Assembly: GCA_964016885.1 (NCBI GenBank)
Contig: OZ024740.1
Span: 214,458,001-214,522,000 of the forward strand
DNA: 64,000 nt
Reading direction: 5' to 3'
Origin: Eledone cirrhosa
Lineage: Eukaryota
Positions 12,559 through 13,102 of the stretch are shown here, piece by piece; the stretch's first letter is position 1, and the number at the start of each line of letters is the position of its first letter. The notes under the pieces are model-generated. The model was not told where the DNA came from. It saw only the letters and a list, made by a program, of their open reading frames with translations, and searched no databases. Both the position numbers and the translations under genes were made by a program.

Positions 12559-13102
12559 TAAAGAAAAAAATATGAAATCGAAAATGCAACTGCAGTCTTA
12601 TTTAAAAAAATATATATATATTTATTTGGTTCCTTTACCGGTTTCACTCTTAGTACGGCTGATACTTAAATGTAAGTATGTATGTATATGTACATACATA
12701 TATGTATACAGACGTACAGTAGTATGTATATATATACATACATGCACACATATATATATATACGTATGGGTTTACCGAACATTTATTATAATGTTCGGTT
12801 TGTTTGTTTGTATGTGTGCATGTATGTATATATATATACATACTACTGTACGTCTGTATACATATATGTATGTACGTATACATACTTATATTTAAGTATC
12901 AGCCGTACTATGAGTGAGAAAGGAAATTTCATATTTTCCATTTATCGTTTTCGGTACACCCGGCCGACTAACTCACTCGATATGCAAATTAAGCTGTACG
13001 TCTGTATACATATATGTATGTAAGTATACATACATACTTACATTTAAGTATCAGCCGTACTAAGAGTGAAAAATGAAATTTTGTTTCATTCTTTTCCATT
13101 TA
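12559..13102. mobile_element. Chimeric insert: Neptune pseudo-LTR end fused to rearranged retrozyme-like segments
   Basis: 12559-12645 matches 2408-2497. 12643-13102 matches the 425/474-bp monomer family, with an inversion near 12810 and a jump near 12993. Confidence 0.8.

What the first reader, a model, noticed from the sequence alone, without database searches (positions are those of the whole stretch)
12559..12810. Chimera joining the Neptune PLE pseudo-LTR to the retrozyme-like monomer exactly at the hammerhead GAAA
Seen: 12559-12645 is the end of the Neptune pseudo-LTR (same as 2408-2497) up to ...cctttaccggtttc. The sequence then switches without spacer to actcttagtacggctgatacttaaatgtaag, which belongs to the 425/474-bp monomer family. 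In sense orientation the join reads monomer ...taagagtGAAA|CCGGTAAAGG pLTR. Further jumps follow near 12810 (inversion) and 12993. Inference: one RT started on the PLE RNA, stalled at its ribozyme and template-switched onto the non-autonomous RNA. That would be direct physical evidence identifying the autonomous partner, a link that is usually only inferred.
Basis: partly seen in the sequence, partly recalled or inferred. Interest (0 to 1): 0.78.

Follow-up and report, generated by a model that had tools for sequence, protein, structure and literature searches.

The report
Retrozyme–Penelope mosaics at TA repeats
A ribozyme-bearing non-coding repeat is fused without spacer to the tail of a Penelope-like retrotransposon here and at 27 other places found, likely because these elements land on each other in TA repeats and join through a few shared bases, so the fusion hints at, but does not prove, which element mobilises the repeat.

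Summary
The junction is real: an 87-nt Neptune-type 3' tail (12559-12645) runs directly into the 425-bp hammerhead monomer through a 4-nt GAAA microhomology. The exact join is unique, but gap-pattern searches found 28 independent direct monomer-Neptune joins. The ribozyme explanation is not supported: 3 of 28 break at GAAA (p=0.10), 12 at a 5' hot spot about 60 nt upstream, and the focal break lies 10 nt past the cleavage site. Nor is the join partner-specific: the monomer also joins a second, Hydra-type PLE (8 cases), the two PLEs join each other (14), and a SINE joins Neptune (5-7 of 60 read). Best reading for this locus (0.55): a short Neptune cDNA primed in the (TA)n beside an existing monomer was joined to monomer DNA by microhomology, losing about 25 nt. 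An RNA-level switch stays open (0.3). Neptune is still the likelier helper: monomer joins are about 5 times commoner per copy with Neptune than with Hydra, and the 32 nt before the monomer's insertion end match best, among 8,866 positions, at Neptune's own end. Interest moderate.

The parts
11852..12535 (.). Neighbouring complete monomer insertion M1: antisense arm 11852-12059, sense arm 12059-12541 ending at the family's main terminus
12239..12281 (+). Monomer's own minimal type I hammerhead (CUGAUGA core, palindromic stem III, U at position 17 in this copy)
   Evidence: descriptor scan; variant counts; activity untested
12536..12558 (.). (TA)n tract, inferred priming site
   Evidence: priming inferred
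12559..12645 (-). Neptune-type 3' tail, 87 nt, from terminus A (ref 2891) to hammerhead G12 (ref 2800); keeps stem III and the cleavage site (between 12636 and 12635)
12642..12645 (-). 4-nt microhomology GAAA shared by the PLE hammerhead and the monomer variant
12646..12807 (-). Monomer insertion M2, left arm; lacks the last 22-26 nt before the family terminus and the TA that normally follows
12811..12993 (+). M2 right arm, segment 2 (monomer 303-425 then 1-56), a different monomer variant
12994..13110 (+). M2 right arm, segment 3 (336 to terminus), same variant as the left arm; the jump at 12993/12994 skips about 280 nt including the hammerhead
13111..13289 (.). (TA)n-(CA)n-(TA)n tract
13257..14830 (-). 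3' part of a second PLE (Hydra-type features), also TA-flanked; control family
2408..6318 (.). Neptune-type PLE copy with inverted arms; RT frame 5284-4049 and GIY-YIG frame 4062-3550 (minus strand), hammerhead 6138-6175
41722..45877 (.). Inverted array of 99.7-100% identical 474-bp monomers, TA-flanked, next to a TA-spaced twin-arm Neptune tail (45979-46333)

Best explanation
The join is likely a by-product of Penelope-like elements inserting one after another into the same (TA)n tract: a Neptune reverse transcriptase would have primed in the TA next to an existing monomer insertion, stopped after 87 nt, and its cDNA end would have been joined through the shared GAAA to the monomer DNA, removing the remaining TA and 22-26 nt of monomer. 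Shown: the anatomy, the microhomology, the missing monomer end, recurrence of such joins among four repeat families, and no enrichment at the hammerhead. Inferred: order of insertion, priming in TA, and that the second template was DNA rather than RNA. The monomer family itself is likely a PLE-mobilised non-LTR retrozyme, more probably carried by Neptune than by Hydra.
For: Join lies just inside the monomer's natural TA terminus, as do 6 other same-sense joins. The same near-terminus pattern occurs where no shared RT is expected: Neptune-Hydra (L288, L366), Hydra-monomer (L125), SINE-Neptune (L394). A nested case shows target loss directly: L219, Hydra tail inside a monomer that resumes about 50 nt further on. 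TA-spaced neighbours are common (about 25 of 30 read from 67 hits) and Neptune nests in monomers with 16-25 nt duplications (L185, L191, L199). The Neptune piece sits between two separate monomer insertions. Direct versus TA-spaced single-arm ratio does not differ significantly between pairs (19:8, 8:7, 14:15; Fisher p=0.11-0.33).
Against: Opposite-sense direct joins deep in the monomer (12) outnumber near-terminus same-sense joins (7), the reverse of TA-spaced neighbours (8 versus about 20; Fisher p=0.03; the 20 is extrapolated from 30 of 67 loci read). L135 has a 22-nt monomer patch at the centre of a Neptune twin-arm insert, which needs a templated switch, although a monomer lies within 350 bp. 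Monomer-Neptune joins are 5.4x monomer-Hydra and about 17x SINE-Neptune per copy pair. Both pieces of the focal join are similarly close to their nearest relatives (0.017 and 0.012).
Confidence: 0.55

Rival explanations
1. One event, two RNAs: RT began on Neptune RNA and moved by 4-nt microhomology onto monomer RNA held in the same or a neighbouring particle, while the other target strand was primed on monomer RNA; the ribozyme plays no special part.
For: Orientation fits; unit is TA-flanked with inverted arms like pure Neptune and pure monomer inserts; both M2 arms share one variant; excess of mixed twin-arm inserts and L135; shared terminal motif between monomer and Neptune; a purified PLE cuts and extends both strands (PMC11167929).
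Against: Same structures arise between Neptune and Hydra (14) whose RTs are 21% identical, and with a SINE; no positive age correlation between joined pieces (rho -0.35, n=26), though this test is weak because monomer twin arms themselves give only rho 0.11.
Confidence: 0.3
2. Later deletion between two complete, TA-separated inserts, guided by GAAA microhomology (repair or replication slippage in a palindrome-rich pile-up).
For: Region is rich in inverted arms; SINE joined to the inside of a Neptune left arm (L428, L433) and internal jumps in arms (L090) show such losses.
Against: 12 of 28 joins use Neptune's natural 5' hot spot (ref 2733-2750), which random later deletions would not favour; only 1 of 28 (L309) joins monomer to the inside of a Neptune left arm.
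Confidence: 0.1
3. One reading: RT stalls at the folded hammerhead and this drives the switch, marking Neptune as the exclusive partner.
For: Focal join, L129 (2799) and L314 (2795) break at or next to GAAA; this is the 3' foot of stem II.
Against: 3 of 28 joins (p=0.10), 11 of 229 arms (p=0.14); 1 of 28 at the cleavage site; no join found downstream of an anchor covering the monomer's hammerhead (0 hits); hammerhead folds no better than shuffles (z -0.9); joins with Hydra exist. In PMC11167929 hammerhead mutants did not change insertion products.
Confidence: 0.05

Closest known systems
Metazoan non-LTR retrozymes (PMC7229834; bioRxiv 10.64898/2026.07.22.740005)
   Same: Tandem 425-474 bp non-coding units with a type I hammerhead, low GC, many copies; PLEs proposed as helpers.
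   Different: Those papers (passages and main text read) infer the PLE link from co-occurrence and pLTR similarity; here there are direct joins, TA targeting, inverted twin arms and two defined termini. The monomer is not a pLTR derivative overall (local alignment not above shuffles). Circular RNA and cleavage untested.
Neptune/Nematis-type EN+ PLEs (PMC8557442; PMC4209133; PMC11167929)
   Same: RT + C-terminal GIY-YIG, CX2-5CxxC linker, CCHH, hammerhead with U3-A8 core, inverted 5'-truncated arm, optional tail (two termini 65 nt apart), microsatellite targeting.
   Different: Most copies are short tails starting at one 5' hot spot; tail extension is 65 nt rather than 30-40.
Hydra-clade PLEs (PMC8557442 section 11)
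   Same: CxCX5C linker, no CCHH, CxxC and CxH motifs near the C-terminus, (TA)n insertion.
   Different: Only a hammerhead-like motif with a non-canonical core was seen; no tree built.
U6/L1 chimeras, L1 twin priming and L1 5' microhomology joins with target deletion (recalled, no call)
   Same: Two RNAs or RNA plus target DNA fused in one insert; inversion from priming on both strands; few-base microhomology.
   Different: Different RT class; here both arms carry 3' ends and may come from different families.

Membership tests
EN+ Penelope-like element, Neptune/Nematis type | RT followed by C-terminal GIY-YIG | tested here: met
   Pfam RVT_1 and GIY-YIG on the window frames; 775-aa stop-free frame spanning both in L245 (RVT_1 below curated cut-off there)
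EN+ Penelope-like element, Neptune/Nematis type | CX2-5CxxC linker and CCHH motif | tested here: met
   Read by eye in the translation against definitions in PMC8557442
EN+ Penelope-like element, Neptune/Nematis type | Hammerhead in the pLTR, inverted arm, optional tail | tested here: met
   U3-A8 variant described in PMC4209133
Neptune clade proper (versus Nematis) | RT phylogeny | not tested
   No reference set at hand; 'Neptune' is kept as a working name
Hydra clade (element B) | CxCX5C linker, no CCHH, CxxC/CxH motifs, TA target | tested here: met
   Translations against section 11 of PMC8557442; Pfam found no family; RWK and DKT motifs lie upstream of the stretch read and were not checked
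Non-LTR retrozyme | Short tandem non-coding units each with a type I hammerhead | tested here: met
   Rfam's best 150 of 303 listed matches held no hammerhead family
Non-LTR retrozyme | Expressed as linear and circular RNA; self-cleaves | not testable with these tools
   No RNA holder listed; no assay
RT template-switch chimera (U6/L1-like) | Both parts same sense, one insertion unit, recurrent independent joins | tested here: met
RT template-switch chimera (U6/L1-like) | Single event shown by one target duplication, equal age or empty/full alleles | tested here: inconclusive
   Flanks are TA only; age proxy lacks power for monomers; reads did not cover the join
RT template-switch chimera (U6/L1-like) | Specific to one helper family; breakpoints at the ribozyme | tested here: not met

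The most novel reading that the evidence does not exclude
Mixed twin-arm inserts, (TA)n-monomer arm | Neptune arm-(TA)n, are single integration events in which a Neptune RT dimer copies its own RNA on one target strand and retrozyme RNA on the other, and the retrozyme recruits Neptune by mimicking the 25-30 nt before Neptune's RT start site. The focal join would then be one of dozens of fossils naming the helper of an animal retrozyme, and Neptune-Hydra mosaics would show that different PLE particles share one break.
Probability: 0.3. Interest if true: 0.7.

Novelty: new variant of a known kind. Interest (0 to 1): 0.42.

Why it matters
The helper of animal retrozymes is inferred in print from co-occurrence and sequence likeness. 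This genome offers a testable pair: a natural Neptune-type copy with a 775-aa open RT-EN frame, a very young identical retrozyme array, shared insertion anatomy, a shared terminal motif and dozens of mosaics. It also gives a caution: direct joins form among all TA-associated repeats, so one chimera cannot name a partner.

Tried and rejected
Rfam scan: no hammerhead among the 150 rows listed of 303; hits were hairpin/microsatellite miRNA models below gathering score. BLAST-type genome search with the chimeric stretch scored 40 of 916 candidates and found no second full-length chimera (L097 was a false lead). Pattern for breaks exactly at GAAA gave 1,649 matches, mostly single-base variants of intact tails; 2 of 30 read break there. 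Anchor upstream of the monomer hammerhead: 0 hits. Age concordance: uninformative because the monomer control failed. Whole-monomer local alignment to either PLE tail was not above shuffles. Sequencing runs: no RNA holder listed; contigs of 4 runs did not cover 12392-12889, so read support and alternative alleles at the join remain open. Earlier-findings look-ups returned nothing. Adjacency as such is near uniform expectation (38, 59, 79, 81 observed versus 51, 117, 71, 51), so co-location alone is no evidence of partnership. The Terminon paper cited was not held.

Full report
Observation. The window (G000:C1:214458001-214522000) is rich in (TA)n tracts. At 12559-12645 lies the antisense 3' tail of the PLE at 2408-6318, followed with no spacer by antisense monomer 12646-12807, an inversion at 12807/12811, sense monomer to 13110 with a jump at 12993/12994, and (TA)n on both sides. 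The PLE has RT and GIY-YIG frames. A descriptor scan found a type I hammerhead with U3-A8 core in its tail (6138-6175) and a separate minimal hammerhead in each monomer. The join is at G12 of the PLE hammerhead, 10 nt beyond the predicted cleavage site in the direction of cDNA synthesis, so the template would have been uncleaved. The right arm of the same monomer insert has GAAA at the matching place, making the join a 4-nt microhomology. The monomer lacks 22-26 nt of its usual end.

Families. Exact 11-12 nt anchors gave about 39,200 monomer, 23,700 Neptune-tail, 54,000 element-B and 216,000 SINE matches after subtracting reversed-pattern controls. In 30 + 30 best-matching loci, monomer and Neptune inserts share one anatomy: TA flanks, two alternative 3' ends (47 and 65 nt apart) and often inverted arms. 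PMC11167929 (parts 1-2 of 4 read) reports that a purified PLE cuts and extends both strands and starts at two internal RNA sites that explain the genomic tail, and that hammerhead mutants do not alter insertion. Element B, adjacent here at 13257-14830, leads upstream into an RT-EN frame with Hydra-clade motifs, 21% identical to the Neptune RT. So two autonomous TA-targeting PLEs are candidates. L245 holds a 775-aa stop-free Neptune frame (1 of 14 long loci fetched). The names Neptune and SINE are working labels; no tree was built. A cephalopod origin is my recalled guess and plays no part in the argument.

Recurrence. The exact join is unique. Gap patterns with one anchor per family found many others; classes below were assigned by hand from printed sequences. 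Same sense, gap 0-150: 14 hits, all read, 8 direct loci including the focal one. Gap 151-330: 67 hits, 30 read in full, 1 direct, 4 chance matches of an anchor, the rest TA-spaced. Mid-monomer anchor: 8 hits, 2 clear direct joins not counted before or shared (L196, L202), 1 already counted, 1 ambiguous. Anchor before the monomer hammerhead: 0 hits. Opposite sense: 38 hits, all classed: 20 direct (2 already counted), 8 single-arm with microsatellite spacer, 7 twin-arm with spacer, 3 chance or unrelated. Total 28 independent direct joins, a lower bound because anchors had to match exactly. Reversed-pattern controls were 0.

Is the ribozyme involved? Neptune-side breakpoints: 12 of 28 at ref 2733-2750, 3 at GAAA (p=0.10 against uniform over 2751-2860), 1 at the cleavage site. 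Over 229 tail-bearing arms from the fetched loci (a non-random set; HHR-selected and full-length-selected loci left out), 106 begin at 2733-2747 and 11 at 2796-2803 (p=0.14). The hot spot, about 60 nt upstream of GAAA (window 6099-6103), likely marks the 5' end of a short tail RNA. No support for stalling at the hammerhead.

Is the join partner-specific? Monomer-Hydra: 59 hits, 51 read, 8 left out because the preview showed no monomer; 8 direct, 7 single-arm spaced. Neptune-Hydra: 79 hits in 77 loci, all read; 14 direct plus 3 borderline, 15 single-arm spaced. SINE-Neptune: 171 hits, 60 read, 5-7 direct. Per 10^9 anchor pairs, opposite sense: monomer-Neptune 20.4, Neptune-Hydra 10.9, monomer-Hydra 3.8, SINE-Neptune about 1.2. 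The monomer prefers Neptune over Hydra (19 versus 8, p=2e-5 against copy number), but spaced single-arm neighbours lean the same way (8 versus 7, p=0.09) and the ratio of ratios is 2.1 (p=0.33). Joins are therefore general, with a monomer-Neptune excess that is only partly explained by co-targeting.

Mechanism at this locus. A Neptune cDNA joined to DNA of a pre-existing monomer, and an RT switch onto monomer RNA, give the same final structure. For the DNA route: the join lies just inside the monomer's TA end; the same pattern occurs for Neptune-Hydra, Hydra-monomer and SINE-Neptune; L219 shows a Hydra tail nested in a monomer with loss of target and continuation beyond; and the Neptune piece lies between two monomer inserts. 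For the RNA route: deep opposite-sense joins are in excess (12:8 versus 7:about 20, p=0.03) and L135 carries a monomer patch in the centre of a Neptune insert. The age test gave no positive correlation (rho -0.35, n=26 of 27) but is uninformative, since twin arms of one monomer insert gave rho 0.11 while Neptune arms gave 0.61. Reads did not cover the join. I put the DNA route at 0.55, the RNA route at 0.30, later deletion at 0.10 and ribozyme stalling at 0.05.

Independent hint at the helper. Noticed by eye and tested afterwards: the 32 nt before the monomer's main terminus score best, among 8,866 positions on both strands of both PLE references, at Neptune's terminus A (7.5 versus 5.5 next best). 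The four commonest monomer ends beat dinucleotide shuffles against that terminus in 0-2 of 300 (0-22 of 300 with the last 10 nt fixed); against one Hydra end 0-52 of 300, so composition contributes. Whole-monomer local alignment is not significant. I rate Neptune as main helper at about 0.6, from this and the join excess, not from the focal join.

Literature. PMC7229834 (passages) names PLEs as strong candidates for mobilising metazoan retrozymes. The 2026 preprint (parts 1-3 of 5 read; supplements not seen and could list such joins) argues from co-occurrence and pLTR trees in vertebrates. PMC8557442 (passages and section 11) describes tandem/inverted inserts and TA bias; PMC4209133 (passages) the U3-A8 core. 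Five searches (listings only for the other papers) showed no report of PLE-retrozyme or PLE-PLE mixed twin-arm inserts; the library lacks most subscription papers. U6/L1 chimeras and L1 twin priming are recalled.

Verdict. Real feature, one of a recurrent class; the ribozyme-stall and exclusive-partner claims are not supported; a weaker, testable link between this retrozyme and the Neptune-type PLE remains. Interest 0.42.

Noticed in passing
window 41722-45877: Array of about nine 474-bp monomers, 99.7-100% identical, inverted at 44014-44020, each with an intact-looking hammerhead: a very recent insertion. A 15-nt flank sequence near 41657-41671 recurs inverted near 46426-46440, around the whole monomer + Neptune pile-up.
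   Followed up: partly
window 1505-2260, 6388-6718, 11441-11522, 13257-14830, 46445-46628; L258, L259, L276: 3' end of a second autonomous PLE with Hydra-clade motifs, about 54,000 anchor matches; the Neptune copy at 2408-6318 sits inside one such copy.
   Followed up: yes
window 6099-6318 equivalent (ref 2737-2956), many loci: 106 of 229 Neptune arms begin within 15 nt, suggesting a short SINE-like tail RNA with a fixed 5' end; some joins keep a 6-9 nt fold-back remnant there (L126, L176, L182).
   Followed up: partly
L118:1501-2455: Neptune tail jumps from hammerhead stem II to the element's own 5' coding region, with the same break in both arms.
   Followed up: partly
L129:1367-2043: A monomer-Neptune chimera present twice as an inverted duplication around a TA tract, flanks included.
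   Followed up: partly
window 35079-35123 (+), 47843-47892 (+), 53917-53972 (+), 51942-51980 (-): Four further type I hammerhead motifs belonging to other repeats.
   Followed up: no
window 1300-1460, 27531-27823, 33558-33860: Another TA-flanked repeat family with an internal hairpin, also seen beside L090, L129 and L197.
   Followed up: no
window 12239-12281 and fetched loci: A monomer subfamily has U instead of A at hammerhead position 17 (33 versus 79 motif matches with an intact core, loci not de-duplicated); U17 is recalled to cleave poorly.
   Followed up: partly
L413, L429, L435: SINE copies inserted cleanly into Neptune tails, the tail resuming on the far side.
   Followed up: partly
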